Source: a virus
Strand: one strand, 5' to 3'
DNA length: 64,000 nucleotides
Virus record (IMG/VR): IMGVR_UViG_3300006931_000005
Coordinates: 9,725 to 73,724 of that record
Shown: positions 5,653 through 17,515 of the stretch, one piece after another
Layout: each line of letters opens with the position of its first letter
Position numbering within the stretch: the first letter of the stretch is position 1
The notes under the pieces: generated by a model
What the model was told of the DNA's origin: nothing
The model's input: the letters and a program-made list of their open reading frames with translations, nothing else
Database searches by the model: none
Position numbers and translations under genes: made by a program

Positions 5653-6740
5653 TTCTCTACGCATCATCTCCTGATGGGGTCGCCCAGCAGCAGAATTACT
5701 ACGACCAGCTCCGAATGAACGCGGAGCAGAACAATGCCGCACGCTTCGACGCGGCACAGGCCCGTGCGCTTCAGGCCACCCTTCAGCAACGTGAATCCGA
5801 CCGGCGCTCGCAGGATGCCGCCGATACCTCCGCAGAGCAAGCTGACCAGTTCAACCAGCGTCTTGCCTTCGAGGGTCAGCAAGGTGATCTGAACCGCGCT
5901 TCACACGAGAAGGACGTGAACACGCAGTACAGCTCGACGCACGCCGACCGGCAGGATGCGATCAATCAGCGCGATTTCGAGCAGGCTCAAAAGCTGGCCA
6001 TGGCTGGTCAGATTCCGCAGACCGAGGAGAAGGTTGCCTCGCTGTATCCGAATTTCAGCAAAGACCAGATCAAAGTTTTGGCGGCGGCAAGCTCGCAGCA
6101 CGCCTTCGACCGTTTCGGCACCGCTCTCGATATGTCGATCCGCGCCGGTAATCCGTTGCCGCTTGAAGCCGTCTCCAAGATCGTCAACCCGGACTCTCCG
6201 ATGTACAAGGACGCGATTGATTTTCGCACCGAAAAACTCGCGCCGTTCGTCCAGCAGTTCAAGACCGGTGAGGACAAGGCCCGCAAGGGAAATTTAGCAG
6301 CAAAGATTCAGGCTGATACCGAGGCTGCACCGCTTCCGACTTCATTGAGCGCCAATACCCCTATGTGGGCTGGCGGTTATGCAAATCCTATCAACTGGGG
6401 TATTCGGCTCGGCGAGCATTTGTTCCCGGATATTACCCCAGATAATACAATCCAGCCTCGTGGCGACTGGCAGACGCGGGCTCCGTCGATTGTTTCATCG
6501 CTCCGCGCTGGGAATGATCCGGCTGTAACCACAGACGTTACAACTGGAAAATTTGTGAACACGATGCTCAATCCGAACGGTGGCCCGCAAGCACCGGAGC
6601 CGATTGTTCCGCCGATCCAGCCCGGCCCGGTCGCTCCTGTCCCCGGCGTTCCGACGGTCACAACTCAAGCCCAATTTGATGCGCTGCCCAGCGGTGCCAT
6701 TTACATTGGAAAAAACGGTAAGCAATTTCGCAAGCCATGA
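5649..6740 (+). CDS. putative internal virion (ejection) protein
   Basis: Q/A-rich coiled N-terminus; C-terminal PTVTTQAQFDALPSGAIYIGKNGKQFRKP of the kind seen in podophage ejection proteins. Confidence 0.65.
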   Translation: MILYASSPDGVAQQQNYYDQLRMNAEQNNAARFDAAQARALQATLQQRESDRRSQDAADTSAEQADQFNQRLAFEGQQGDLNRASHEKDVNTQYSSTHADRQDAINQRDFEQAQKLAMAGQIPQTEEKVASLYPNFSKDQIKVLAAASSQHAFDRFGTALDMSIRAGNPLPLEAVSKIVNPDSPMYKDAIDFRTEKLAPFVQQFKTGEDKARKGNLAAKIQADTEAAPLPTSLSANTPMWAGGYANPINWGIRLGEHLFPDITPDNTIQPRGDWQTRAPSIVSSLRAGNDPAVTTDVTTGKFVNTMLNPNGGPQAPEPIVPPIQPGPVAPVPGVPTVTTQAQFDALPSGAIYIGKNGKQFRKP

Positions 6741-9700
6741 AGCAAGATGATTTTGGCGGCATCGCATTGGACGATCCACAATCATCTGACGAATTTGGTG
6801 GTGTACCGTTGGCACCTTCCACATCGACAGATGAATTCGGTGGGGCACCTTTAACTTCACCGGCTCCGATTCAAGTCCCGGCGCAGAGCCAGCCGATGCC
6901 GGAGCCGATTCCATTCAAAAACCCGGACATCATCGCGCCCGCGCCGGAAGCGCCGTCGATCCCCGGCGTCTTGGCCCGCAGCGCGGCCAGAAATGTTCTG
7001 CCGACCGCAGGATTTATTGCGGCTGCGCCAGTCGGTCGCTTGGCCGGTGCTGCTGCTGGTGCCCGCACTGGCGCTCTGCTTGGAGCTCTGGTGCCCGGTC
7101 TTGGTGAAACTGGCGTCAGTGAGGGCGTTGGCGCAGTGATTGGTGGCCTTATCGGTATGTTCGCCACTGGAACAGCGGCGGCAACTGCAACGAAAGCACT
7201 TCAGACTGGCGCTGCCGATTACGTCGCACCAGATTCTTTCCTTGGAACGAAGTCGGAGCAGGCGGATATGGCGGCACATCCCATCGCCAGTGAGCTGGGA
7301 AGCCTTGCCGTCATCGGAAAACCGAATCCGTTCAACATCATCCGGGCTGCACGCACCATCGGGTCGGATACCGGACGCGCAGCACTCGCCGATCTGTTGA
7401 AAACTGGCGCGACCAAGGGCGGCTATCAGGAATGGGCCAAGACTTACTCGCCAGAGGTGCAAAAATCTGCTGTCAACGTGCTCAACGTCGCGCAGGCGGG
7501 CGGCATCAACGCGGCTTTCAATGTGTACGACCAGATCAAATCTGGAAATTACAGCGCGGGCGACCTTTTACGGTCGGCGGCGGAGGGCGCTTTGTTCAAT
7601 GAGCCTTGGATTCACGCAAAAAATCCTGCGACCGACTCGTTTGATTCCGCACTGACACCCGAACAGGCCACGGAAGCGAATAAAAACCTCCGGGCGTTGA
7701 GCCCGTACCCGGAAACCGGGACGCCGACGAACATCTCGAAGGGGATCGTGGCCGTTCCGGTCGGTCAGCGGACGCATATCATCCAAGTGAACGGTCAGGA
7801 CGCCGCCGTTTTGAAGCACGTCGATGGCGCGGACTTTCAGAAGGCGCAGGACGATGCTGGCGCGTCCGGGTGGGACGGATATTTTCTTAAAAAAGACCCG
7901 GAGAGCGGCAATCCGACGATCTACATCAACATGGATCACCTGAACCGTCAGGATTCCCTGTTCACGCACGAGTCAACGCATTTGCTGGAGGCCATGGGGC
8001 TCATCAACCAGCAGCAGATGGACGCCGTGAACACGACCTACGGCCAGATCAAGGTCAAGGACGCCGACGGAAATGAATTGCCCATCGCTCAAGAGGTGGC
8101 GAACCGTTACGCGAAATTTAATCAGGACAACAGCCGACCGGATCAGACGCCGGAAGATTTTCAGCGCGAACTTTTCGCCAACATCCTGCAACACTGGCAT
8201 GAAACCGGGACTGCGCCGAAAGACACCTTCATCAAGCGGGCGATTGATTTCATTTCCGGCATTGCCGGGCTCGATAAATCGGGCGAACAGCACGCGAGAG
8301 ACTATATCGCTGGCCGTTTTGAGAAGGCACCTGAAGAAGCCGGAGCTCCGGCGACCGCCGATCTTGTTCCGGCTGGCGCAGCGAGCGCGGCTCCTTTGCC
8401 AAATTTGGCATTTGACAAAAATCCTGTTCCGTCGCAGGCTACGGGTGATGTCAGACAAGCCGAAGAACGAGCAGGAGCCGGAGTACCACCGCCCGCCGAA
8501 GGGGTGGAAGCCGGGAGGCCCGCCGTTGGTGCTCCGCCCGCCCGCCCCGGTGCCGAGCCCAACGCCGCCGTCCAGCAAGCCGCCAATGCCTACAACGAAG
8601 CCGTAGGTCTCGGCCCAACGCAGCCGCATTACGTCCCGGTGGACGAGGCCCGTGCCCGCCAGATCGCCGCCGAGTACGAGAAGCTTCCGAAAACCGACCA
8701 GTCTCCGCAGACCCTTGCGTCCTACGAACAGCTTGGCAAGGAAATCCAGCAGCAGTGGGATTATGCCCGGAACAAAATGGGCATCACGTTCGAGGCTTGG
8801 ACGAAAGAGGGCCAGCCCTACGCGAATTCCCGCGAGATGGTGAAGGATGTCCGGGACAATCATCACCTTTATTTTTTCACAGGCGGCGATGAGCATCCGC
8901 TGCTCAACGTCAAGGACGCTGACGGGCTCACGCTCAATGACAAGCTCCGGGCTGTCCATGACCTGTTCGGTCATGCGGCGGAAGATTTTCAATTCGGCGC
9001 ACGCGGCGAGGAAAATGCGTGGATCAAGCACAGCCAGATGTTCACTCCCCTCGCGCAGAAGGCGCTGACGACCGAGACCCGTGGCCAAAACTCGTGGGTG
9101 AATTACGGGCCGCACAATTACGAGGCGACCGGTGCCCGGAGAAACATCAAGCCGCAGGATCGTCCGTTTGCGGATCAAAAAGTTGCCCTGCTCCCTGACT
9201 GGGTGCATGATTGGAAAGGCCCGTTAAATGAAAACCAAAAAGCACAGTTCAGCGTCCCGAAACAAGCGCCCGATTTCACCGACCTCCAGTGGTGGAAGCG
9301 TGACAAATCCGAACCGGATGCAGGCGCTCGTGAATCTGGCGCTCCAAGAACTATCGCAGGTAATCCCCGCGAGCTCGCCCCCGGCGAACGCGACGGCAAA
9401 GTAACACTCACGCACTGGTCGAACTTCGACCTTCACGGAAAGGCGATTGATCCGAATTTTTACGGCTCCGGTTATGCCGGTGAGGAAAAAGGCCGTCGGG
9501 TTTTCAAAAAGTCTTGGCTGAACCGCAGCTATTTTGGAATGAAGGGCTACGTCAAAGAAGGTGGCCTTGGCCGATTCAAGCACAGCGTCACGGTGGACGT
9601 GAACAAGCTCTACGACCTGAAGAATGATCCCGACCGGCTGGGTGAAAAAGTCGGCGCGATCTCCGACCGGCTGTATCCGAAGGGTGGCACGCAAGCCGAT

Positions 9701-12700
9701 CTCACCGTTTACGAAAATCTCATCAAGAAGGCCGGGTACATCGGATACTACAACACCGATTATGCGGTGGCCGCGCTGTTCGACAAGGTGCGCGTCCCGG
9801 CCCGCGTTTCAATCATTCACTCGGTTGAAAATTTCAAGCCCGCCACACACAAGGACATGACGCCGGAGGAGCTGCTGACATCGGCGCAACAGGTGCGGAT
9901 CAAGGCTCCTTCCGGGACTACCGCATTGCGTGTGATCGACTCGAACGGCAACACCGTGATTCATAACCTGTCGAAATTCTCGACCAGAAATCCGCTGTTC
10001 AACAAGGATGTGGTGCGTGTCAGCCCGGTATCGGTGAAAACCAGTGGCGTGTACAAGAACCATCCGATCCCAGTGAAAGGGCCAGTGCGCGTCGAGCCGA
10101 CGGCGATGTTTTCGGTGCCGAAGAAAAAAGAATTTTTAGATGCGGGCGAGGAATCTCGCAATCCAAGACCTAATGCTACGACATTGCCGACTCCACCGAC
10201 AGGGGGGCTTAAAGAAATCGGAGATCGTACCGCATCTAAGTTTAATTACGATAAAAACGTGCTGGATGAAAATGGCGCGATGAAGCGATTTTATCACGGA
10301 ACAGGAAAATCGGATCAATTAGTAAAATCTGGAGGATTTAGCTATGAAAAAGCCAGCGACGAATCACTGTATGGAAAAGGATTATATTTCACTGAAAATC
10401 CTGAAATTGCTGGAGGAACAGTCGTAGGCGCTGATTTGGTAAAACGCGGATATGCTGGCAGCTCTGGTGCTGTCATTCCGGTCAACATCAATGCCAAAAA
10501 TCTTTTTGATGATTCGGTCGGTATTCCGAAGCAGCAAGCCGAAAAGCTGGTGCTAAAATATATTGATAAAAACGGTGAAAACGATGTCCAGCTTAACGGC
10601 AAGTATGGATCATTCGCCGCCGCAAAACCGGTAATTAAAGCGCGTGAATCAATAGATAATTCGTTTCGAGAATTGATTGATGATTTGGCGCAAGAAAAAT
10701 CAATTCGGGATTTAGTTAAAAAATATGTTCCAGCCGGAAGTTTATCTGGAAGCCAGACCATAAAAGATCGTTTGAGCTGGGCTTTTGGTCGGCGCAGTAT
10801 CCATAACTCAATCGCGTCTGAACAGGATAAGTCGGCTGGTGGAATACGGGCTGAATCAACAGGTGATATTAAGCAAAAAATTTACCAACTCGATGATCTT
10901 GAAAAGCAAAGCAATGCTCTTGATCGTCAAATTTCAGAGGCGATGGGGCAGGTTGGTAAGTATTCTGACTTTGTAAAAAAAGTAATTGAAAATGTTGATG
11001 GCCCTGTGAAATACGGCGATCTTACAGATATTTTTTTACAGGACAAAAACGAGGTCAATAATTTTTTAAGAAATTCTGGATACGATGGGATTACTCATAT
11101 TGGAGGAACTATCACAGGTAGCGATCCACATCGCGTTGTAATTGTTTTCGATCCGAAGCAGATTCGCTTTGCGATTGGCGCAGATCAGCCTTTCTTTTCA
11201 GTTCCAAAAAATTCATCTCAAGAGCTGAAAAAATTTCCGCGCACAGCCATCGACATTCTGATGGACGAATCGGTAATCAATCCGGTGCGTCCGAAGCAGG
11301 TTGCCGAATTCGATCTCATGGGCGATGACGAGGCCGCAGGATCGACCAGCTTCTCCCGCGTGTTCGCGGTTGCCGACCACCTTTCCCGCCGATCCGCGCA
11401 GCTTGGCGGTGGAGCCCTGCACGAGCTCAACGACACAAACGCCGAGACGCTGGCAAACACTGTGGCGAACGAGGCGGAGTACGCGATCAACCGCGATCCG
11501 AAGGCGATTGGCTGGTACGACCGCGAAATGAAGGCGGCGATGGGCCAGATTTTTAACCGGCACCCGGAGCTGAAGAAAGATCGCGGCCTGCAATCCGTTT
11601 TCAAATCCATTCTGGCGATCACCAACAACGGCCAGAATGTTTTTGCGAATTTCGCGCAGGCGGACAAGCTTTACACGGATTGGCGCACGGCGGGCAAGGT
11701 GCCGGACGAGGAGAACTGGGGCGGCAAGAGTAAGGGCGCGATCAACGACGGCCTGAAGATGCTCAACCTGCTCATCGAGAAGCTGGGCACCGCGAATCTG
11801 GAAAAGTTTTTGGCCAAGGAATTCAAGGTTGGCGATCTCAAGAGGGCTGGATTCGACATCAGTTCTGAAAACACCGAGCACATGGCGCACGGCTCGCTGA
11901 TCTACGGCCCGAAGGTCGGCGGCGGATTCTATCAAAACCTGATCGGCAACCTGAATCCGATCACGATGGATATGTGGCTCATGCGGACGATCAACCGTAT
12001 GCGCGGCACGCTCACCGAGCCCAGCCTCACGGCGCTCCCGGATCAGATCGACCGGTTCATCAAGTCGATGAAGAAGCAGCCGGACAGCGAGGCGATTATC
12101 GCGGATGCCAAGCGCGTGAAGCAGCAGATTTTGGACGGCACGCTCGACGTGAACAAGGAGAAGGATGCTCCGGGTGTGATGCTGACCGCCGCCAAGAATT
12201 TGTACGACGATTACCGCAACAGCGGGTTCGTAAAGCGGACGGAGCTCAACCGCAGCTCGAAGCTGATCGCCGAGGAATTTTTCGGCATCAACGAAGCGCC
12301 GACTTCGGCGTCCGAGCGTGATTTCATCCGCAATGTTTTCGTCCGGGCGCAGGAGAAGTTGAAAGCGAAAAAAATCGACATCACGAACGCCGACCTGCAA
12401 GCCGTTCTGTGGTATCTTGAGAAGGATATTTATGGAAAACTTGGAGCAACCGACCGCCGATCCGCGCCCGCCAGCTACTCGGACGCCGCCGCAGCCCTCA
12501 ACCGAAAACAGCTCGGACTTTTCGATGAAGAACAAGGACGATCAGGCGATCTTCGAGGAGCTGAATCCGCTGGCCCGGAGATCAATCGCTTCGGTGAAGC
12601 TGGCAAGCAGCTTACTGGCGCACAGGCGCTCAAGCGGGTCTCCGTCCAAGAAGCGGAGCCTGTACCGCAGTTCTCGGTGACGAAGAAGCTGAAGTTTTAC

Positions 12701-15700
12701 GAAGGCAAACGCTTCGGTGACGTGAAGGACGAGGTGGTGCCGGAAGTTCCGCCGTTTCATCCGCTCGGCGTCGAACAATTCAAGCAGGCCCGCGACAGCA
12801 TCGTGAACCTCGCGCACACGACCGGCGCGATCCAAGCGCGTGGTATGCGGATCAACTTCGCCAACCCTGATCCGGTCACGGCCAAGCGCCTTGGCGTTGA
12901 CCAGAACAGCATGGTGGCCCGCGCCATCCACGCGATCTCAAATTCCGACCGGCGCACGGCGAACGAAAACAAGGTGCTGCTCGCCGACAACATTTTGAAC
13001 ACGGTGAAGCAGGCTGATTTCGTCACCAAGATTCAACGTGATTCAACGGACGGTGATAATGTCGGCCAGTACGGTACGGCATTCATCAAGGCTTACGATA
13101 TTGACGGCAAGAAGGTCTGGCACCTTGTCCAAGTGGACGGCAATGGTGATTTTATCACGCAATTTTCTTGGCCGGATACGGAAGCTGAAAATGGACGGGT
13201 GATGCGGTCGCAGATTGTGCAGGTTGGTCAGCGGGTTGGTGGTTTGCTAGAGTCGAAGGTTAATCCGCAGGCCGAAGCCCCGACGCCTTCTAATTTCGCT
13301 CCGCCAACCGCTGACCAAGGTGAGATTGCCACATCTGGCAAAGAGGCGCAACCTCAATTTTCAGTAGCCAAGGAGGAGAAGCGGGCGCAGGTCGGCGGCA
13401 TCCCTGAAGTCGGTCAGGTGCGCGATACCGAATCCATTTCCGACAACCAAGCGCACATCCGCGAGCGCCTGTTCGACGGCACGCAGCCTGTTTCTGACGA
13501 GAACACATCCGCCGCGTGGCAGGTATTCGACGAGATGACGGGCAACAACCGCTCCCAGATCGCCGGGCAGTTGAAAGACGCCTTTGGCGGATCGCGGCTG
13601 CTCCTTGGCCTATATAAAGGCGAGGTCTGGAAGTACGCCCGCAAGCTGGCGGTCAACGGTGACGATTCGCTGCTGCGGGCGATGTACGATCACAGCGAAC
13701 AGTTTGAGACCCTTGCCGGTGGTGGCGCATCAACCGCTGGCTCCGCGCTCCGGGCCGAGGCCGAGAATGCAAACGATCCGGTCAACCGGGCACTCCAGTC
13801 CGCCTACGAGACCGAGCGCGAAAATGCGGCCCAGTCCGCCTCCGGCATCGACCGCGAGACCTTCACCGGACTGCTCAAGCGCCTGCGTAGCCTGAAGCTG
13901 ACGCCGGACGAGGTTGAGAAGGTGGTCAAGGAGGGCAAGCTGCCGGACGGCAAAACCCTCGAAGAAGCTTTGGACGAGCTTACGCCGGAATCGAAGGAGG
14001 CCATGGCGTTGCTCGACAAGTATCAGCGTTCGCAGACGGAATGGCTGAAGCCGGACGTGAAGAAGTCGATCATCCGCGTGATCGTGGACGCCGCCATCGG
14101 CGAGAACAAGCTGGCGCGTTACGACGAGAAGGATTTTCAGGATCGGTTGTCCACCCGGCTGCAAGAAGCCACGGTGCCGAAGGAAGTCGCCGACCAGCTC
14201 GCGTTCGAGGTGTGGAAAGACAAGGCTGCACGCGAGGCCACCAAGACCGACAAGGCTGTCAAGGCGGATGCCGCGTTCGAGCAGAACCGGGCGCAGGCCA
14301 TTCTCGACAAATTGCAATCTGACCAGACCGAAGTGTTCAGTCAGGCCCGGCGCTCGAAGGTTGCTGACATCGTTAAGGCGTTTTACAAAAACCCTGCGGC
14401 GTCCGAAGAAGTGCGAGCCCAGCAGATCGCGCAGCTCGAAAAAGATTTGGTTAATGAGACCGTGAAACCCGCAACGGCCAAGGAGCTGGCGCGGGAAGCT
14501 GGCCAGCGCAAGCTGGTGCTCGAAGCAAACGACCGGCTGGCGCAGGAGAAGGTCACGGCCAACGAAGCGCAGCAGACCGCTGAACGCGAGCTCGCAAAAT
14601 TCGAGGAGAAAAACTCCGGTGTCGAATGGCTGAAGGAAAAAGGCAAACGCGATCAGGTGCTTCAGGCGATTGCCGATGCGCTGAAGTCGAAGTCGCCGAT
14701 CCTCGATGATCCGACACCGCTGGTGAACGAGACCAAGGCGAAGCTCACTGCGCTCGGCGTAGATGAGGCCACGGCGGGCAAGCTGGCTTTCGAGATCGAG
14801 ACCGTCCGGCGCACGCAGTTCGCCAACAGCCGCGTGAAGGCGATGGAAAATGCCGCCAAATCTAAAAGCCTGCGGTCGCTCATCGAATCTATCCTCGAAA
14901 CCCCGTACCGCGCCCAGTCCGACCCGAAATGGCTGCATGAAACTGCTGTCCGCTGGTTCGAGTCGAACGGTCTCGGCAAGGATCAGGCTGAAGCCGCCGC
15001 CCGGCTGTTCGACAAGGAGTTTAAAGAGGCGTTGGCGCAGGCCAGCACCAAGGTTGCCGAGGCTGAACTGAAGAAAAAAGTATCGCCCCGCACTTACGAT
15101 GATCTGGAGCGGTTGATCCGGGCCGGAATTTTCGACCCGGACAAAAACTGGATCGACCAGCTCGCGGCGAAGAACGGCTGGAAGAAGCCATCGCGTGACC
15201 AGATGCTCAAATTGCAGGAATTGGAGCACAAGCTTTCCGATCCTGAATTGTCACCCGAAGAAGTGCGCGACATCCAAGAGCAGCAGATGCACGTCCTGCG
15301 TCACGTCGGCAAAAAAAGGGGCCAGACCCTCCGGGCGCTCGGCGAATCGTTCACTGCCTCGCTGCTGTCCGGCATCCGCACGCTTACCGTGCAGACCTCG
15401 CCGACGGTCATGGCCCTCCGCGATCTGCCGATCATGGCGCTGTCCGATCCGAAGAACGCGATGAATTTTGCGAAGGCGATGTACAACTCCTTCAAGGCAA
15501 ATGCGGTCGCGGCGTTCAAATTCGCGTGGATGAAGGACGCCTACGGTTTTCACTTGAGCGAGCTGGAGCACGGCTTCAACGAGATGAAGCGCATCTCCGA
15601 GGAGACGGATCAGGTGGTCAACTCAAAGACCTCGACGCCGGTTGCCAAGGCGCTCGCGTACACCAAGAAGCTCTACGCGCTCCAGCGTTTTGTTTTCCGC

Positions 15701-17515
15701 AACCTGAATTCCATCGACCAAGCTTCGATGGCTGTCACCCGCGAATGGAAGCTGGCGTATTATTCCGCTTCTGCGTTCAAAGAAGCCGGGCTGACGAACA
15801 CGGACATTTCGCAGTTGATCGACCACATCGAGATGCTGCGTAAAAACGAATTCGAGAAAGCCATCGACGCCGGGCTGGATGCGAACACGGCCAAGGTGCG
15901 GGCCAACAGCCGGGTCGCGGATTCCGTCTGGGATTTCGTGAATAACAAGACCGGTCGCAGCGATCTTGCGGATCAGGTTATCAAGGCTACCGAGAACGAC
16001 GTGTACTCCACCGTCGGTCGTGTGCCGCACGGCTTGAATTCAACGGATGAAGGCTTCCTGACCCGGTTCTCCGGCTTTAATCATTTCCTGCAATTCGTGT
16101 CCAAGGTTCGCGGCGAAGGCGGGCTCCAGAACATCGGCACCACGGCGCTGATCGGCATGATTAACATTCCATTCCGCACGACCCGTTATTTTTCTGACTT
16201 CTCGCCCTACGGCCTGCTGCGCTACGGTATCTACAAGTACCGGCTGAATCGCGGCAAGGAAAACTTCTGGAAACAGACGTATGGCAACGCGCTTCAGGCT
16301 CGCGCCCGGCTGTACTCCGCGCTCGCGGGCACCGTTGCCATGGCCGCAGCGACCGCATGGGCGCTCAAGAGCAACACGGCGGACGACAAGGCTGGTGACG
16401 AGGACTTCGGCCTGTACATCACCGGCAAGGGGCCGAACAACAAGGTGCTGGCCGATGCGTGGGTCAAGCGTGGATTCAAGCAGTATTCGGCAAACTTTGT
16501 TTTCGGTGGCCACATCGTTGCGATTCCGCTGACCCGTGCGGGCGAAGCCCTGATGATGCCCTTCATCCTGCCCGCCGCGCTCGATGACTATGCGTGGAAA
16601 TCGAAAGAGGCGGAAGCGGGCGGTCATCCGATCAAGACTCCGATTTCATCCGCCACTGCATCACTGATCGGCGAGGCAATGTACATGACCGGCCAGTCAG
16701 GTATCCTCCAGACTTTTGGCCAGCTCCAGCAGGCGACTGAAAACGGCGGCAGCTTGGGCAAGGCGGCGGTCAAGGTCGGTGTGAGCGCGGCATCATCGAC
16801 GGTGTTACCCTTCCGCCAGCTCCTCGCGTCCGTGAGCGAAATGCTTTTCGGAAGCATGGATAATTCAAGCATCAGCTCGCTGATCGCAAACCAGTTTCCA
16901 ATCGTGGGCCTGCCGTTTCAGAATCCGGCTGTCAACCGCTTTGGTGATCCGATGTACGACCGTAGCTGGTACGGTCTGATCGCCCGCACTGGCGTTCCCA
17001 TCGCTTTTCAGATTTCGCGTTCGCCGGAAAATGAGCGGTTGTACACGACGCTCGTGGAAAAAGGAATTTCGCCACCGCCGCTGAATCGCTCCGATCTTGA
17101 ATCGAAGTACGGCGACATGACCGATCAGCAGTTCAAGCAGTTTGCTACCGTTTCAGGTCAGGCGTTGAAGCAGGCAATCACAAAGAATCTTCCCGACCTT
17201 CAGGGCATGAGCTCGGTGGACGCGAAGAACCTGATGTTCAAGCTGGCGATGCAGGCGAACGCTCAAGCGGCCATGGCCATTGGCGTGGCTCCGCAGCCCG
17301 CAGCCGGTCAGACTGCCGCCGCAGGGTCGGCTGGTGCCGCGCCGTCGAAACAGAAAAAGGCGAAGCTTTCCAAGGCGTCTAAATCAGTCCGGTCGCTTTA
17401 CAAGCTGCCGAAGATGAGCCTGTCTCCGGTCGGTAAGAAATCTCACAAATCGACCACGGCCCGGCGCGGTGGATCGCTCTACGGCGTGCAGCCACGCCAC
17501 CTCTACGGCACCTGA
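6737..17515 (+). CDS. giant polyvalent ejected virion protein (3592 aa): HExxH peptidase-like, HDxxGH domain, two ADP-ribosyltransferase-like modules, HhH glycosylase-like, BECR-like nuclease, helical C-terminus
   Basis: THESTH; RAVHDLFGH..F..RGEENAW; LTHWS..RSYFG; FYHGT..YGKGLYFT..GYDGI..VVIVFDPKQIR; GWY..GPKVG..ITMDMW..LQAVLW; modules joined by FSVxK. Confidence 0.85.
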   Translation: MKQDDFGGIALDDPQSSDEFGGVPLAPSTSTDEFGGAPLTSPAPIQVPAQSQPMPEPIPFKNPDIIAPAPEAPSIPGVLARSAARNVLPTAGFIAAAPVGRLAGAAAGARTGALLGALVPGLGETGVSEGVGAVIGGLIGMFATGTAAATATKALQTGAADYVAPDSFLGTKSEQADMAAHPIASELGSLAVIGKPNPFNIIRAARTIGSDTGRAALADLLKTGATKGGYQEWAKTYSPEVQKSAVNVLNVAQAGGINAAFNVYDQIKSGNYSAGDLLRSAAEGALFNEPWIHAKNPATDSFDSALTPEQATEANKNLRALSPYPETGTPTNISKGIVAVPVGQRTHIIQVNGQDAAVLKHVDGADFQKAQDDAGASGWDGYFLKKDPESGNPTIYINMDHLNRQDSLFTHESTHLLEAMGLINQQQMDAVNTTYGQIKVKDADGNELPIAQEVANRYAKFNQDNSRPDQTPEDFQRELFANILQHWHETGTAPKDTFIKRAIDFISGIAGLDKSGEQHARDYIAGRFEKAPEEAGAPATADLVPAGAASAAPLPNLAFDKNPVPSQATGDVRQAEERAGAGVPPPAEGVEAGRPAVGAPPARPGAEPNAAVQQAANAYNEAVGLGPTQPHYVPVDEARARQIAAEYEKLPKTDQSPQTLASYEQLGKEIQQQWDYARNKMGITFEAWTKEGQPYANSREMVKDVRDNHHLYFFTGGDEHPLLNVKDADGLTLNDKLRAVHDLFGHAAEDFQFGARGEENAWIKHSQMFTPLAQKALTTETRGQNSWVNYGPHNYEATGARRNIKPQDRPFADQKVALLPDWVHDWKGPLNENQKAQFSVPKQAPDFTDLQWWKRDKSEPDAGARESGAPRTIAGNPRELAPGERDGKVTLTHWSNFDLHGKAIDPNFYGSGYAGEEKGRRVFKKSWLNRSYFGMKGYVKEGGLGRFKHSVTVDVNKLYDLKNDPDRLGEKVGAISDRLYPKGGTQADLTVYENLIKKAGYIGYYNTDYAVAALFDKVRVPARVSIIHSVENFKPATHKDMTPEELLTSAQQVRIKAPSGTTALRVIDSNGNTVIHNLSKFSTRNPLFNKDVVRVSPVSVKTSGVYKNHPIPVKGPVRVEPTAMFSVPKKKEFLDAGEESRNPRPNATTLPTPPTGGLKEIGDRTASKFNYDKNVLDENGAMKRFYHGTGKSDQLVKSGGFSYEKASDESLYGKGLYFTENPEIAGGTVVGADLVKRGYAGSSGAVIPVNINAKNLFDDSVGIPKQQAEKLVLKYIDKNGENDVQLNGKYGSFAAAKPVIKARESIDNSFRELIDDLAQEKSIRDLVKKYVPAGSLSGSQTIKDRLSWAFGRRSIHNSIASEQDKSAGGIRAESTGDIKQKIYQLDDLEKQSNALDRQISEAMGQVGKYSDFVKKVIENVDGPVKYGDLTDIFLQDKNEVNNFLRNSGYDGITHIGGTITGSDPHRVVIVFDPKQIRFAIGADQPFFSVPKNSSQELKKFPRTAIDILMDESVINPVRPKQVAEFDLMGDDEAAGSTSFSRVFAVADHLSRRSAQLGGGALHELNDTNAETLANTVANEAEYAINRDPKAIGWYDREMKAAMGQIFNRHPELKKDRGLQSVFKSILAITNNGQNVFANFAQADKLYTDWRTAGKVPDEENWGGKSKGAINDGLKMLNLLIEKLGTANLEKFLAKEFKVGDLKRAGFDISSENTEHMAHGSLIYGPKVGGGFYQNLIGNLNPITMDMWLMRTINRMRGTLTEPSLTALPDQIDRFIKSMKKQPDSEAIIADAKRVKQQILDGTLDVNKEKDAPGVMLTAAKNLYDDYRNSGFVKRTELNRSSKLIAEEFFGINEAPTSASERDFIRNVFVRAQEKLKAKKIDITNADLQAVLWYLEKDIYGKLGATDRRSAPASYSDAAAALNRKQLGLFDEEQGRSGDLRGAESAGPEINRFGEAGKQLTGAQALKRVSVQEAEPVPQFSVTKKLKFYEGKRFGDVKDEVVPEVPPFHPLGVEQFKQARDSIVNLAHTTGAIQARGMRINFANPDPVTAKRLGVDQNSMVARAIHAISNSDRRTANENKVLLADNILNTVKQADFVTKIQRDSTDGDNVGQYGTAFIKAYDIDGKKVWHLVQVDGNGDFITQFSWPDTEAENGRVMRSQIVQVGQRVGGLLESKVNPQAEAPTPSNFAPPTADQGEIATSGKEAQPQFSVAKEEKRAQVGGIPEVGQVRDTESISDNQAHIRERLFDGTQPVSDENTSAAWQVFDEMTGNNRSQIAGQLKDAFGGSRLLLGLYKGEVWKYARKLAVNGDDSLLRAMYDHSEQFETLAGGGASTAGSALRAEAENANDPVNRALQSAYETERENAAQSASGIDRETFTGLLKRLRSLKLTPDEVEKVVKEGKLPDGKTLEEALDELTPESKEAMALLDKYQRSQTEWLKPDVKKSIIRVIVDAAIGENKLARYDEKDFQDRLSTRLQEATVPKEVADQLAFEVWKDKAAREATKTDKAVKADAAFEQNRAQAILDKLQSDQTEVFSQARRSKVADIVKAFYKNPAASEEVRAQQIAQLEKDLVNETVKPATAKELAREAGQRKLVLEANDRLAQEKVTANEAQQTAERELAKFEEKNSGVEWLKEKGKRDQVLQAIADALKSKSPILDDPTPLVNETKAKLTALGVDEATAGKLAFEIETVRRTQFANSRVKAMENAAKSKSLRSLIESILETPYRAQSDPKWLHETAVRWFESNGLGKDQAEAAARLFDKEFKEALAQASTKVAEAELKKKVSPRTYDDLERLIRAGIFDPDKNWIDQLAAKNGWKKPSRDQMLKLQELEHKLSDPELSPEEVRDIQEQQMHVLRHVGKKRGQTLRALGESFTASLLSGIRTLTVQTSPTVMALRDLPIMALSDPKNAMNFAKAMYNSFKANAVAAFKFAWMKDAYGFHLSELEHGFNEMKRISEETDQVVNSKTSTPVAKALAYTKKLYALQRFVFRNLNSIDQASMAVTREWKLAYYSASAFKEAGLTNTDISQLIDHIEMLRKNEFEKAIDAGLDANTAKVRANSRVADSVWDFVNNKTGRSDLADQVIKATENDVYSTVGRVPHGLNSTDEGFLTRFSGFNHFLQFVSKVRGEGGLQNIGTTALIGMINIPFRTTRYFSDFSPYGLLRYGIYKYRLNRGKENFWKQTYGNALQARARLYSALAGTVAMAAATAWALKSNTADDKAGDEDFGLYITGKGPNNKVLADAWVKRGFKQYSANFVFGGHIVAIPLTRAGEALMMPFILPAALDDYAWKSKEAEAGGHPIKTPISSATASLIGEAMYMTGQSGILQTFGQLQQATENGGSLGKAAVKVGVSAASSTVLPFRQLLASVSEMLFGSMDNSSISSLIANQFPIVGLPFQNPAVNRFGDPMYDRSWYGLIARTGVPIAFQISRSPENERLYTTLVEKGISPPPLNRSDLESKYGDMTDQQFKQFATVSGQALKQAITKNLPDLQGMSSVDAKNLMFKLAMQANAQAAMAIGVAPQPAAGQTAAAGSAGAAPSKQKKAKLSKASKSVRSLYKLPKMSLSPVGKKSHKSTTARRGGSLYGVQPRHLYGT
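8397..8440 (+). promoter_or_regulatory. internal operator plus promoter inside the giant gene
   Basis: TGCCA-AATT-TGGCA (8397-8410), then TTGACA(8412)-17-CAGGCT(8435); ATG at 8448. Confidence 0.55.
8448..8606 (+). CDS. nested +1-frame micro-protein (52 aa, MSDKPKNEQEPEYHRPPKGWKPG...)
   Basis: Own promoter; G/C third-position bias moves to this frame. Confidence 0.5.
   Translation: MSDKPKNEQEPEYHRPPKGWKPGGPPLVLRPPAPVPSPTPPSSKPPMPTTKP
9228..9404 (+). CDS. nested +1-frame micro-protein (58 aa, ...MQALVNLALQELSQVIP...)
   Basis: Spans first FSVPK linker; G/C third-position bias in this frame over its second half. Confidence 0.42.
   Translation: MKTKKHSSASRNKRPISPTSSGGSVTNPNRMQALVNLALQELSQVIPASSPPANATAK
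12525..12680 (+). CDS. nested +1-frame micro-protein (51 aa, MKNKDDQAIFEELNPLARR...)
   Basis: Giant frame has atypical A/T-ending codons here (GAA CAA GGA CGA TCA) while +1 frame reads AAG AAC AAG GAC GAT CAG GCG ATC TTC GAG GAG CTG. Confidence 0.52.
   Translation: MKNKDDQAIFEELNPLARRSIASVKLASSLLAHRRSSGSPSKKRSLYRSSR
13226..13316 (-). ncRNA. antisense structured RNA embedded in the giant gene
   Basis: Long closing stem GGUCAGCGGUUGGCGG/CCACCAACCCGCUGACC; GGC-UUCG-GCC hairpin on minus strand; 5' G follows a -10 box by 6 nt. Confidence 0.6.
13323..13351 (-). promoter_or_regulatory. antisense promoter with operator
   Basis: TTGCGC-17-CAATCT; TCTTTGCCAGATGTGGCA is 17/18 identical to the tRNA-cluster promoter. 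Confidence 0.6.

What the first reader, a model, noticed from the sequence alone, without database searches (positions are those of the whole stretch)
8397..12680. Nested +1-frame micro-genes in the inter-domain linkers of the polyvalent protein (candidate built-in immunity genes)
Seen: three ATG ORFs of 51-58 aa (8448-8606, 9228-9404, 12525-12680), plus a weaker one at 10140-10283. All are in the +1 frame and all sit at module boundaries. In the three stronger ones the G/C third-position bias moves from the giant frame into the +1 frame. The 8448 ORF has a perfect TTGACA-17-CAGGCT promoter, an adjacent operator and a near-leaderless ATG. Inference: each enzyme module carries a small cognate inhibitor overprinted on its flexible linker, making the gene a toxin-antitoxin array read in two frames.
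Basis: partly seen in the sequence, partly recalled or inferred. Interest (0 to 1): 0.85.

Follow-up and report, generated by a model that had tools for sequence, protein, structure and literature searches.

The report
Hidden small genes inside giant phage gene
Of four small shifted-frame reading frames inside a 3,592-residue phage "polyvalent" protein gene, one is very probably a real hidden gene whose peptide is predicted to dock onto the neighbouring enzyme module, a second is probably real, and two look like chance.

Summary
The window is a complete 73.7-kb phage record. Gene 6737-17515 encodes a 3,592-aa polyvalent protein. All four ORFs exist and lie in the +1 frame, but their number equals chance (25 open stretches of 45 codons or more; 25.2±2.6 expected). 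The GC shift comes from Ala/Pro/Gly-rich linkers, and the "perfect promoter" has a 2-of-6 -10 box.

Relatives change the verdict for two ORFs.
- **ORF 8448-8606:** its +1 motif [YF]xRPPxGW is kept in 11 lineages with +1-wobble changes (Arg CGN/AGA). +1 identity is 0.70, main frame 0.38 and the synonymous-redraw null 0.23±0.02. Some relatives have AAGGAG-N6-ATG.
- **Predicted binding:** a complex model places the peptide on invariant residues of the adjacent module (ipSAE 0.83, best control 0.02). This is a prediction only.
- **ORF 9228-9404:** +1 is the only one of six frames similar in all three relatives. Another clade has a clearly conserved 57-59-aa +1 ORF in the same linker.
- **ORFs 10140-10283 and 12525-12680:** no support.

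So there are nested genes, not a full toxin-antitoxin array. This scan has noted nested genes in polyvalent-gene linkers on other DNA (TnpV; a Bacteroidales phage). The held paper library has nothing on it.

The parts
6737..17515 (+). Host gene: 3,592-aa polyvalent protein. It comprises an N-terminal part with HESTH (HExxH, aa 411, nt 7967), module 1 of unknown family, module 2, an ART-PolyVal module, two more modules and a long C-terminal part.
   Evidence: Relatives are giant proteins that carry PolyVal Pfam families.
8448..8606 (+). ORF A: nested +1 gene of 52 aa. It is very probably protein-coding.
   Evidence: Start and stop are kept in L002. An intact ATG ORF of 43-106 aa occurs in 11 lineages. 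AAGGAG-N6-ATG is present in L045/47/76 and L048.
8484..8513 (+). Conserved +1 core motif YHRPPKGWKP (family consensus [YF]-[HRK]-R-P-P-[KQR]-G-W-[KDN]-P). The main frame reads the same DNA as VPPPAEGVEA.
   Evidence: +1 identity is 0.70, main 0.38 and +2 0.45. Codon differences are 166 synonymous/164 nonsynonymous in +1 and 30/339 in main. The null is 0.23±0.02, with 0 of 5000 reaching the observed value. In 157 control windows +1 never exceeds main. The antisense frame is rejected.
8537..9241 (+). Module 1 (main frame), phrog_3170, with no Pfam family. It has invariant HDLFGH (8957-8974), GEENAW and ETRGQNSW motifs. It is the predicted binding partner of the ORF A peptide.
   Evidence: The AF2 model has pLDDT 93. 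In the complex model the peptide touches G82, Y95, F114, N134, R138, D142, H146, F153, A212 and Q214.
9228..9404 (+). ORF B: nested +1 ORF of 58 aa in the module 1-module 2 linker. It is probably coding. The conserved core around ELSQVIP lies at 9348-9368.
   Evidence: A +1 stop directly precedes the ATG in the window and in L002. The 33-nt exact run 9209-9241 shared with L002 spans its start. ELSQ[AV][KI]P is encoded by different codons, including Ser TCG/AGC. +1 is the only one of six frames similar in all pairs.
10140..10283 (+). ORF D: +1 ORF of 47 aa. It has no support and is most likely chance.
   Evidence: No relative with alignable DNA was found. The global ORF count equals chance.
12525..12680 (+). 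ORF C: +1 ORF of 51 aa. It has no support and is most likely chance.
   Evidence: The only relative (L056) has no ATG at the matching place and a different stop. There the main frame keeps NRFGE.GK.
8397..8417 (.). A 14-bp perfect palindrome TGCCAAATTTGGCA (8397-8410) followed by TTGACA (8412-8417). The same DNA encodes the main-frame border motif PLPNLAFDK. A promoter or operator role is unproven.
   Evidence: The main-frame motif PL[PS]N recurs in distant relatives.
9248..9262 (+). First of five main-frame FSVxK border motifs. The others are at 10109, 11195, 12671 and 13358. Modules are swapped exactly at these motifs.
   Evidence: Ser is encoded by both AGC and TCN, so selection acts on the main-frame protein. 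The L002 junction at aa 1216 joins the left side of window junction 1125 to the right side of junction 1979.

Best explanation
The giant gene is a phage polyvalent protein built of exchangeable modules. Two of its inter-module linkers are read in two frames.

**ORF A (8448-8606).** This is a genuine nested gene, started from its own ATG on the same mRNA. Its about 50-aa product has a short acidic head, a conserved [YF]xRPPxGW core and a Pro/Ser/Thr/Lys-rich tail. I infer that it binds the adjacent module 1, a putative metal-dependent enzyme, across the invariant N134/R138/D142/H146 face. In this reading it acts as a trans-acting lid or inhibitor, or possibly a chaperone, for that module.

**ORF B (9228-9404).** This is probably a second nested gene in the next linker. 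Its target is unknown.

**ORFs C and D.** These are chance open frames, of a kind that hydrophobic-poor linkers produce automatically.

**Shown versus inferred.** Amino-acid-level selection in +1 is shown for A and is suggestive for B. Translation, binding and inhibition are inferred.
For: **ORF A, conservation**
- In 11 lineages whose module 1 is 57-82% identical, the +1 frame reads [YF][HRK]RPP[KQR]GW[KDN]P. It always lies 128-152 nt before the module anchor and always at frame offset +1.
- The +1 third positions vary: Arg is CGC/CGT/CGA/AGA, and Gly is GGG/GGC/GGA/GGT. The main frame over the same DNA reads VPPPAEGVEA, LQATTPGMGS or LQKTPERVGP.
- +1 identity is 0.70 and main-frame identity 0.38. 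Synonymous/nonsynonymous codon differences are 166/164 in +1 and 30/339 in main.
- When the main-frame peptides are kept and synonymous codons redrawn, +1 identity is 0.23±0.02 (maximum 0.34; 0 of 5000 reach the observed value).
- In 157 control windows inside the module, +1 identity never exceeds main-frame identity, and the highest z is 6.3.
- In an unbiased scan of the window against L002, this region is the top outlier for +1 minus main identity (+0.25). It also holds the longest exact nucleotide run, 42 nt.

**ORF A, gene structure**
- Every lineage has an ATG upstream of the motif. L045/47/76 and L048 have AAGGAG 6 nt before that ATG.
- Most other +1 ATG ORFs of the gene are broken in L002.

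**ORF A, predicted binding**
- The complex model scores 0.83, against 0.02 for the best of 3 controls. That mark was reached by 58 of 80 solved complexes and by 2 of 110 mismatched pairs. These counts hold only roughly here, because my own alignments were used.
- The three runs share at least 74% of contacts, and the partner's pLDDT is at least 61.
- Peptide residues 8 and 10-32 touch ten invariant module residues.

**ORF B**
- The analogous ORF in the L096/L101/L102 clade scores 63-95 by Smith-Waterman in +1 (p<0.001), against 29-31 in the main frame (p>0.26). It has GGAG 7-10 nt before its ATG.
Against: - There is no expression or translation evidence.
- The window's own ORF A and ORF B lack a Shine-Dalgarno sequence. 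This is neutral, because only 5 of 36 genes of this phage have one.
- The 11 lineages were picked with a regular expression on the +1 peptide, which inflates the +1 identity somewhat. Nearly all relatives whose alignment reaches this region do have the motif.
- Only about 10 residues are clearly better conserved in +1 than in the main frame. The C-terminal half of ORF A overlies the conserved main-frame RPNAEPNP.
- No stand-alone homologue of the peptide exists among 5.8 billion called proteins.
- The binding result is a model with my own alignments. No toxicity or inhibition is shown, and the fold and function of module 1 are unresolved.
- ORF B rests on three sequences. In L002 its stop comes 11 codons earlier, and in L056 the start differs.
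Confidence: 0.62

Rival explanations
1. All four ORFs are chance open frames. The +1 similarity among relatives is a by-product of main-frame or nucleotide conservation.
For: The ORF count equals the shuffle expectation. The linkers lack T at codon position 2, so +1 stops cannot form there. The C-terminal half of ORF A and the first 24 codons of ORF B overlie conserved main-frame motifs.
Against: +1 identity of 0.70 cannot be reproduced from the main-frame peptides (0 of 5000). Main-frame synonymous sites are frozen: Gly is always GGG, and Val/Leu/Met are always NTG. Main-frame position 1 varies freely. Arg switches between CGN and AGA, and Ser between TCG and AGC, in +1. Control windows and other +1 ORFs behave differently.
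Confidence: 0.08
2. The +1 motif is translated by programmed frameshifting, not from its own start. It would then form an alternative C-terminus of the upstream part (+1 shift). Alternatively, after initiation in +1 and a -1 shift, it would form an N-terminal pro-peptide of module 1.
For: The +1 frame is open far upstream in the window (191 codons). From the +1 ORF's point of view the main frame is the -1 frame. The predicted docking on the module cleft would also suit a cis pro-peptide.
Against: In L039 and L052 the +1 frame opens only 17 codons before the motif Arg. I saw no conserved slippery site in the window sequence (inspection only). AAGGAG-N6-ATG or GGAG sites sit before the ATG in several lineages. 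For ORF B a +1 stop directly precedes the ATG. The motif accompanies module 1 whatever lies upstream.
Confidence: 0.1
3. The conserved stretches are nucleotide-level elements rather than a second coding frame. Candidates are recombination joints for module swapping, an internal promoter/operator, or RNA structure.
For: Modules are exchanged exactly at the FSVxK borders. The runs of exact identity with L002 lie near module borders. The palindrome plus TTGACA island is kept in L002 and in a 93%-identical relative.
Against: Variation at the motif has period three, with its wobble at +1 position 3, and includes codon-family switches. That is not expected of DNA or RNA signals. The antisense frame that shares this wobble scores lower (identity 0.60, BLOSUM 2.97, against 0.70 and 4.90). 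It also has stops inside the motif in L050 and L056. The exact 30-mer occurs in only one other viral contig.
Confidence: 0.05
4. One reading: every module has its own overprinted inhibitor, so the gene is a two-frame toxin-antitoxin array.
For: ORFs A and B are supported. Binding of A to its module is predicted. Nested ORFs occur in linkers of other clades.
Against: The +1 frame after junctions 1487 and 1979 has stops. After junction 2208 the window has no start, although L002 does. ORF C is not kept in L056. ORF D is untestable. No module is shown to be toxic. The polyvalent payload is presumably aimed at the host, so self-immunity is an assumption.
Confidence: 0.07

Closest known systems
Rz/Rz1 embedded spanin genes of phage lambda (own knowledge)
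   Same: A small proline-rich protein is encoded entirely inside a larger phage gene, on the same strand and in the +1 frame. The two products bind each other.
   Different: Rz1 is a secreted lipoprotein with a signal peptide and a lipobox Cys. ORF A has no hydrophobic stretch and no Cys. The host gene here is a multi-enzyme virion or ejected protein, not a lysis gene. The overlap lies in a linker plus the first about 22 codons of a module.
Overprinted genes of viruses in general, such as phiX174 B in A and E in D (reviewed in PMC8227390, listed)
   Same: A younger ORF lies in an alternative frame of an older gene. Its product is short, compositionally biased and probably disordered. Synonymous sites of the older frame are constrained.
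   Different: Here the overprinted stretch is a flexible connector of a modular polyprotein. The new product is predicted to act on the neighbouring module of the very protein whose gene hosts it.
Toxin-immunity and type II toxin-antitoxin pairs, including polymorphic toxin cassettes with conserved border motifs (own knowledge)
   Same: A small cognate partner is encoded next to an enzymatic domain and travels with it. It is predicted to cover conserved residues of that domain. Cassettes are delimited by a short conserved motif (FSVxK here).
   Different: Immunity genes are separate downstream ORFs, not frames of the toxin gene. Neither toxicity nor neutralisation is shown here. Only one or two of six modules have a partner.
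Polyvalent proteins of phages and conjugative elements (Iyer et al. 2017, own knowledge; Pfam ART-PolyVal PF18760)
   Same: The host gene is a member: a giant ORF of many unrelated enzyme modules, with an ART-PolyVal hit and relatives carrying LPD and PolyVal families.
   Different: In the held paper library no paper combines 'polyvalent protein' with 'overprint'. Nested genes in polyvalent linkers are known to me only from this scan's own earlier notes.

Membership tests
Same-strand overlapping (overprinted) protein-coding gene | The ORF is intact, with start and stop, in diverged relatives. | tested here: met
   ORF A is an ATG ORF of 43-106 aa in 11 lineages. ORF B is kept in L002 (47 aa) and L056. 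ORF C is not kept. ORF D is untestable.
Same-strand overlapping (overprinted) protein-coding gene | Purifying selection acts on the amino-acid sequence of the alternative frame and is not explained by the host frame. | tested here: met
   For ORF A. For ORF B the result is suggestive and rests on three sequences.
Same-strand overlapping (overprinted) protein-coding gene | The ORF has its own translation initiation signal. | tested here: inconclusive
   AAGGAG-N6-ATG or GGAG is present in several relatives. None is present in the window, but only 5 of 36 genes of this phage have a Shine-Dalgarno sequence.
Same-strand overlapping (overprinted) protein-coding gene | The product is detected (Ribo-seq or proteomics). 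| not testable with these tools
   The phage is uncultured and known only from a metagenome.
Toxin-antitoxin or toxin-immunity pair | The small protein binds its cognate enzyme domain. | tested here: inconclusive
   This rests on a model only. The score is 0.83 and the best of 3 controls is 0.02. The mark was reached by 58 of 80 solved complexes and 2 of 110 mismatched pairs. The runs share at least 74% of contacts and the partner's pLDDT is at least 61.
Toxin-antitoxin or toxin-immunity pair | The enzyme domain is toxic and the partner neutralises it. | not testable with these tools
   The function of module 1 is unknown.
Embedded o-spanin (Rz1-like) | An N-terminal signal peptide with a lipobox Cys. 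| tested here: not met
   The ORF A and ORF B peptides have no hydrophobic N-terminus and no Cys.
Polyvalent protein (host gene) | A giant ORF in a phage or conjugative element that strings together several unrelated enzymatic modules, including PolyVal-type families. | tested here: met
   The gene encodes 3,592 aa in a 73.7-kb phage record with terminal repeats. ART-PolyVal scores 41.7 bits against a cut-off of 31.2. Modular mosaicism with L002 is seen.
Sigma-70 promoter upstream of ORF A | -35 and -10 hexamers close to consensus at 16-18 nt spacing. | tested here: not met
   The -35 box is perfect but the -10 box matches 2 of 6 positions. The promoter scan does not list the site.

The most novel reading that the evidence does not exclude
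Linkers of phage polyvalent proteins are a general nursery and home for overprinted small genes. Their products dock onto the neighbouring effector module and control it, for example by keeping it silent in the producing cell until it is packaged or ejected. On this reading the 'floppy connector' in the main frame is the price paid for a second, functional reading frame. Module plus nested regulator then move together as one cassette.
Probability: 0.3. Interest if true: 0.85.

Novelty: new variant of a known kind. Interest (0 to 1): 0.72.

Why it matters
Gene callers never report nested same-strand genes, and no called protein among 5.8 billion resembles the ORF A peptide. Products of this kind are therefore invisible in current phage annotation.

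If the 8448 peptide binds and controls the adjacent module, three things follow:
- Polyvalent effector proteins would carry built-in, co-mobile regulators.
- It would give a handle on a widespread module of unknown function (phrog_3170).
- It would add a clean, comparatively well-supported case to the short list of prokaryotic-virus overlapping genes in which the selected frame can be demonstrated.

It also explains why some "linkers" are long, of low complexity and poorly conserved in the main frame.

Tried and rejected
**Tools or searches that gave nothing**
DNA of the close relatives P0004, P0005 and P0006 could therefore not be fetched by that route.
- Single-protein and two- or three-sequence scans of viral, metagenome and genome contigs for modules 2 and 4 returned only the contigs of L002 and L056. 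One alignment was too diverse to search with.
- A search for ART-module relatives in five phage records gave only a 28% match over 58 aa.
- No RNA holder is listed for 8000-9600, so there are no expression data.
- The ORF A peptide against 5.8 billion proteins gave no hit.
- Module 1 gave no Pfam hit and no PDB sequence hit. Foldseek's best hit was E 0.1 to aromatic amino-acid hydroxylases. VIA-align's best Z was 3.5, with several zincin-like peptidases among the weak rows. The fold is unresolved. HDLFGH resembles the HELLGH iron site of those hydroxylases only from my memory.

**Readings considered and rejected**
- The long version of ORF A (ATG 8073, 177 aa) is rejected. L002 has no far-upstream ATG. 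In a 93%-identical relative, 19 of 30 differences in 8000-8440 fall on main-frame position 3.
- The antisense 411-aa ORF 7973-9208 is rejected. It is only 94 codons open in L002, and stops fall in or next to the motif in six lineages.
- Other +1 ORFs (8847, 9624, 14850, 16281, 6993) are broken in L002.
- Homology between ORF B and the L096-clade ORF was not detectable.

Full report
**Context.** The window is part of a complete 73.7-kb virus record with direct terminal repeats. Gene 6737-17515 is a single 3,592-codon ORF. It has an ART-PolyVal module (PF18760, 41.7 bits against a cut-off of 31.2) and a module matching phrog_3170. It also has an HExxH (HESTH) at aa 411. Its relatives are giant proteins of 2,000-4,800 aa with PolyVal and LPD Pfam families. 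It is therefore a phage polyvalent protein. Five main-frame motifs [QMF]FSV[PTA]K (aa 838, 1125, 1487, 1979, 2208) mark the module borders. Ser in this motif is encoded by both AGC and TCN, so the motif is selected as main-frame protein. The closest relative is L002, 62-65% identical. It lacks window aa 1136-1947, and its junction joins the left side of one window border to the right side of another. Other first-reader notes on this genome had already listed these motifs.

**The observation.** All four ORFs exist and are in frame +1. As a class they are not unusual:
- The +1 frame of the gene holds 25 open stretches of 45 codons or more, against 25.2±2.6 after synonymous shuffling. It holds 12 ATG ORFs of 47 aa or more, against 10.6±2.3.
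- The shift of G+C to main-frame position 1 is real (0.89, 0.68 and 0.77). It occurs in 36 of 142 windows and follows from Ala/Pro/Gly/Glu-rich linkers.
- The same linkers are poor in codons with T at position 2 (0.11-0.19 against 0.24). A +1 stop cannot form without that T.
- The 'perfect promoter' has a perfect -35 box but a -10 box matching 2 of 6 positions, and the promoter scan does not list it.
- The adjacent 'operator' is a real 14-bp perfect palindrome. It coincides with a main-frame border motif (PLPNLAFDK; PL[PS]N recurs in distant relatives).

**ORF A (8448-8606).** Comparison with relatives changes the picture.
- *Closest relative.* In L002 the same ATG and the same stop are kept. 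The longest exact nucleotide run in about 8 kb of aligned gene, 42 nt at 8474-8515, lies inside ORF A. An unbiased scan of +1 identity minus main-frame identity along the whole gene peaks here at +0.25.
- *Motif in 11 lineages.* I fetched about 80 viral loci and two metagenome loci that carry the homologous module 1. In 11 distinct lineages (module identity 57-82%) the +1 frame reads [YF]-[HRK]-R-P-P-[KQR]-G-W-[KDN]-P. It always lies 128-152 nt before the module anchor and always at offset +1. In 1.2 Mb searched in six frames there were only two unrelated matches.
- *Codon pattern.* The +1 third positions vary (Arg CGC/CGT/CGA/AGA; Gly GGG/GGC/GGA/GGT; Pro CCG/CCA/CCC). The main frame over the same bases reads VPPPAEGVEA, LQATTPGMGS or LQKTPERVGP. 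Its synonymous sites are frozen: Gly is always GGG and Val/Leu/Met always NTG.
- *Statistics.* Mean pairwise identity is 0.70 in +1, 0.38 in the main frame and 0.45 in +2. Synonymous/nonsynonymous codon differences are 166/164 in +1 and 30/339 in main. Keeping each main-frame peptide and redrawing synonymous codons gives 0.23±0.02 (maximum 0.34; 0 of 5000 reach the observed value). In 157 control windows inside the module, for the same sequences, +1 identity averages 0.34 against a null of 0.31 and never exceeds main-frame identity.
- *Antisense frame.* The antisense frame that shares the same wobble position is worse (identity 0.60, BLOSUM 2.97, against 0.70 and 4.90). It has stops in or beside the motif in six lineages.
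- *Starts.* Every lineage has an ATG upstream of the motif. L045/47/76 and L048 have AAGGAG 6 nt before it. The window has no such site, but only 5 of 36 of its genes do.
- *Upstream region.* A 93%-identical relative shows that the DNA upstream of 8448 evolves as main-frame-only sequence, with 19 of 30 differences at main position 3. The short ORF is therefore the unit.
- *Caveat.* The lineages were picked by a pattern on the +1 peptide.

**What ORF A may do.** The motif accompanies module 1 wherever that module sits. In relatives the module lies at aa 560 to 3045, and in L039 it is at the N-terminus of a 768-aa protein. Module 1 folds confidently (pLDDT 93) but matches no known family or fold convincingly. 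It has many invariant polar residues (HDLFGH, GEENAW, ETRGQNSW), which suggests an enzyme. A complex prediction of module 1 with the ORF A peptide, each supplied as an alignment, supports binding:
- The score is 0.83, against 0.02 for the best of 3 controls.
- That mark was reached by 58 of 80 solved complexes and 2 of 110 mismatched pairs. The counts hold only roughly here because my own alignments were used.
- The runs agree in at least 74% of contacts, and the partner's pLDDT is at least 61.
- Peptide residues 8 and 10-32 touch G82, Y95, F114, N134, R138, D142, H146, F153, A212 and Q214, all invariant.

This is a model, not a measurement.

**ORF B (9228-9404).**
- A +1 stop directly precedes the ATG in the window and in L002, so entry by frameshift is excluded.
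- The second-longest exact run shared with L002 (9209-9241) spans this start.
- In the poorly conserved linker, the +1 peptide ELSQ[AV][KI]P is shared by the window, L056 and L002, although almost every codon differs (Leu CTC/TTA, Ser TCG/AGC).
- Of six frames, only +1 is significantly similar in all three pairs. For L002-L056 the Smith-Waterman score is 39 (p≤0.001), against 17 for the main frame (p=0.64).
- A separate clade (L096, L101, L102) has a 57-59-aa ATG ORF in the same linker, with GGAG 7-10 nt upstream. Its +1 peptides score 63-95 (p<0.001), while the main frame and all other frames are not significant. It is not detectably homologous to ORF B.

**ORFs C and D, and other junctions.** The only relative covering ORF C (L056) has no ATG at the matching place and a different stop. 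There the main frame keeps NRFGE.GK. No relative covers ORF D. After junctions 1487 and 1979 the +1 frame has stops. After junction 2208 the window lacks a start. Most other +1 ATG ORFs of the gene are broken in L002.

**Verdict.**
- The inhibitor role rests on a docking model. I put binding at about 0.55 and inhibition at about 0.35.
- The 'array' claim is not supported.
- This scan has earlier noted nested genes in polyvalent-gene linkers on other DNA: TnpV in conjugative elements, and a small acidic protein in Bacteroidales phages. I did not test those notes.
- In the held paper library no paper combines 'polyvalent protein' with 'overprint'.

Noticed in passing
window 9248-9262, 10109-10123, 11195-11209, 12671-12685, 13358-13372: Five main-frame FSVxK motifs delimit the modules. 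The relative L002 lacks two modules exactly between two such motifs. Related motifs (KFSIVRL, KYSVARL) precede module 1 in distant relatives. They could be cleavage sites for the HExxH domain at aa 411 or for a prohead protease, or recombination joints.
   Followed up: partly
window 10124-11209: The ART-PolyVal module is AT-rich (GC3 about 0.3, against 0.67 for the gene). It is absent from the closest relative, which suggests a recently acquired cassette.
   Followed up: partly
window 14268-14465 (+1 frame): A 65-aa +1 ATG ORF whose start lies in a 32-nt exact run shared with L002, where the ORF is kept at 60 aa. The peptide is Arg/Ser/Cys-rich and lies over a well conserved helical main-frame region, so it is probably a by-product.
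   Followed up: partly
window 7973-9208 (- strand): A 411-aa antisense ORF opposite the N-terminal part and module 1. In L002 the same frame is open for only 94 codons, so it is not conserved.
   Followed up: yes
window, gene starts throughout: Only 5 of 36 long genes have GGAG, GAGG or AGGA upstream. The leaders are A/C-rich, which suggests a host with Shine-Dalgarno-independent initiation.
   Followed up: no
window 9209-9384: Short contigs (151-157 nt) from two freshwater metagenome studies match the border motif plus most of ORF B with 0-1 differences. Other laid pieces of those runs that I looked at match at about 80-93% (table 8).
   Followed up: no
L002:10001-18973, junction at aa 1617: A second 'NEN...FSVSK' junction in L002 also creates a +1 ATG (MKTQ...; 55-aa ORF). 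The window has no start at the homologous junction 2208.
   Followed up: partly
window 8957-8974 (module 1, HDLFGH): An invariant H-D-x-x-G-H with downstream GEENAW. The weak fold rows are aromatic amino-acid hydroxylases and zincin-like peptidases. It is possibly a metal site, but the function is unknown.
   Followed up: partly
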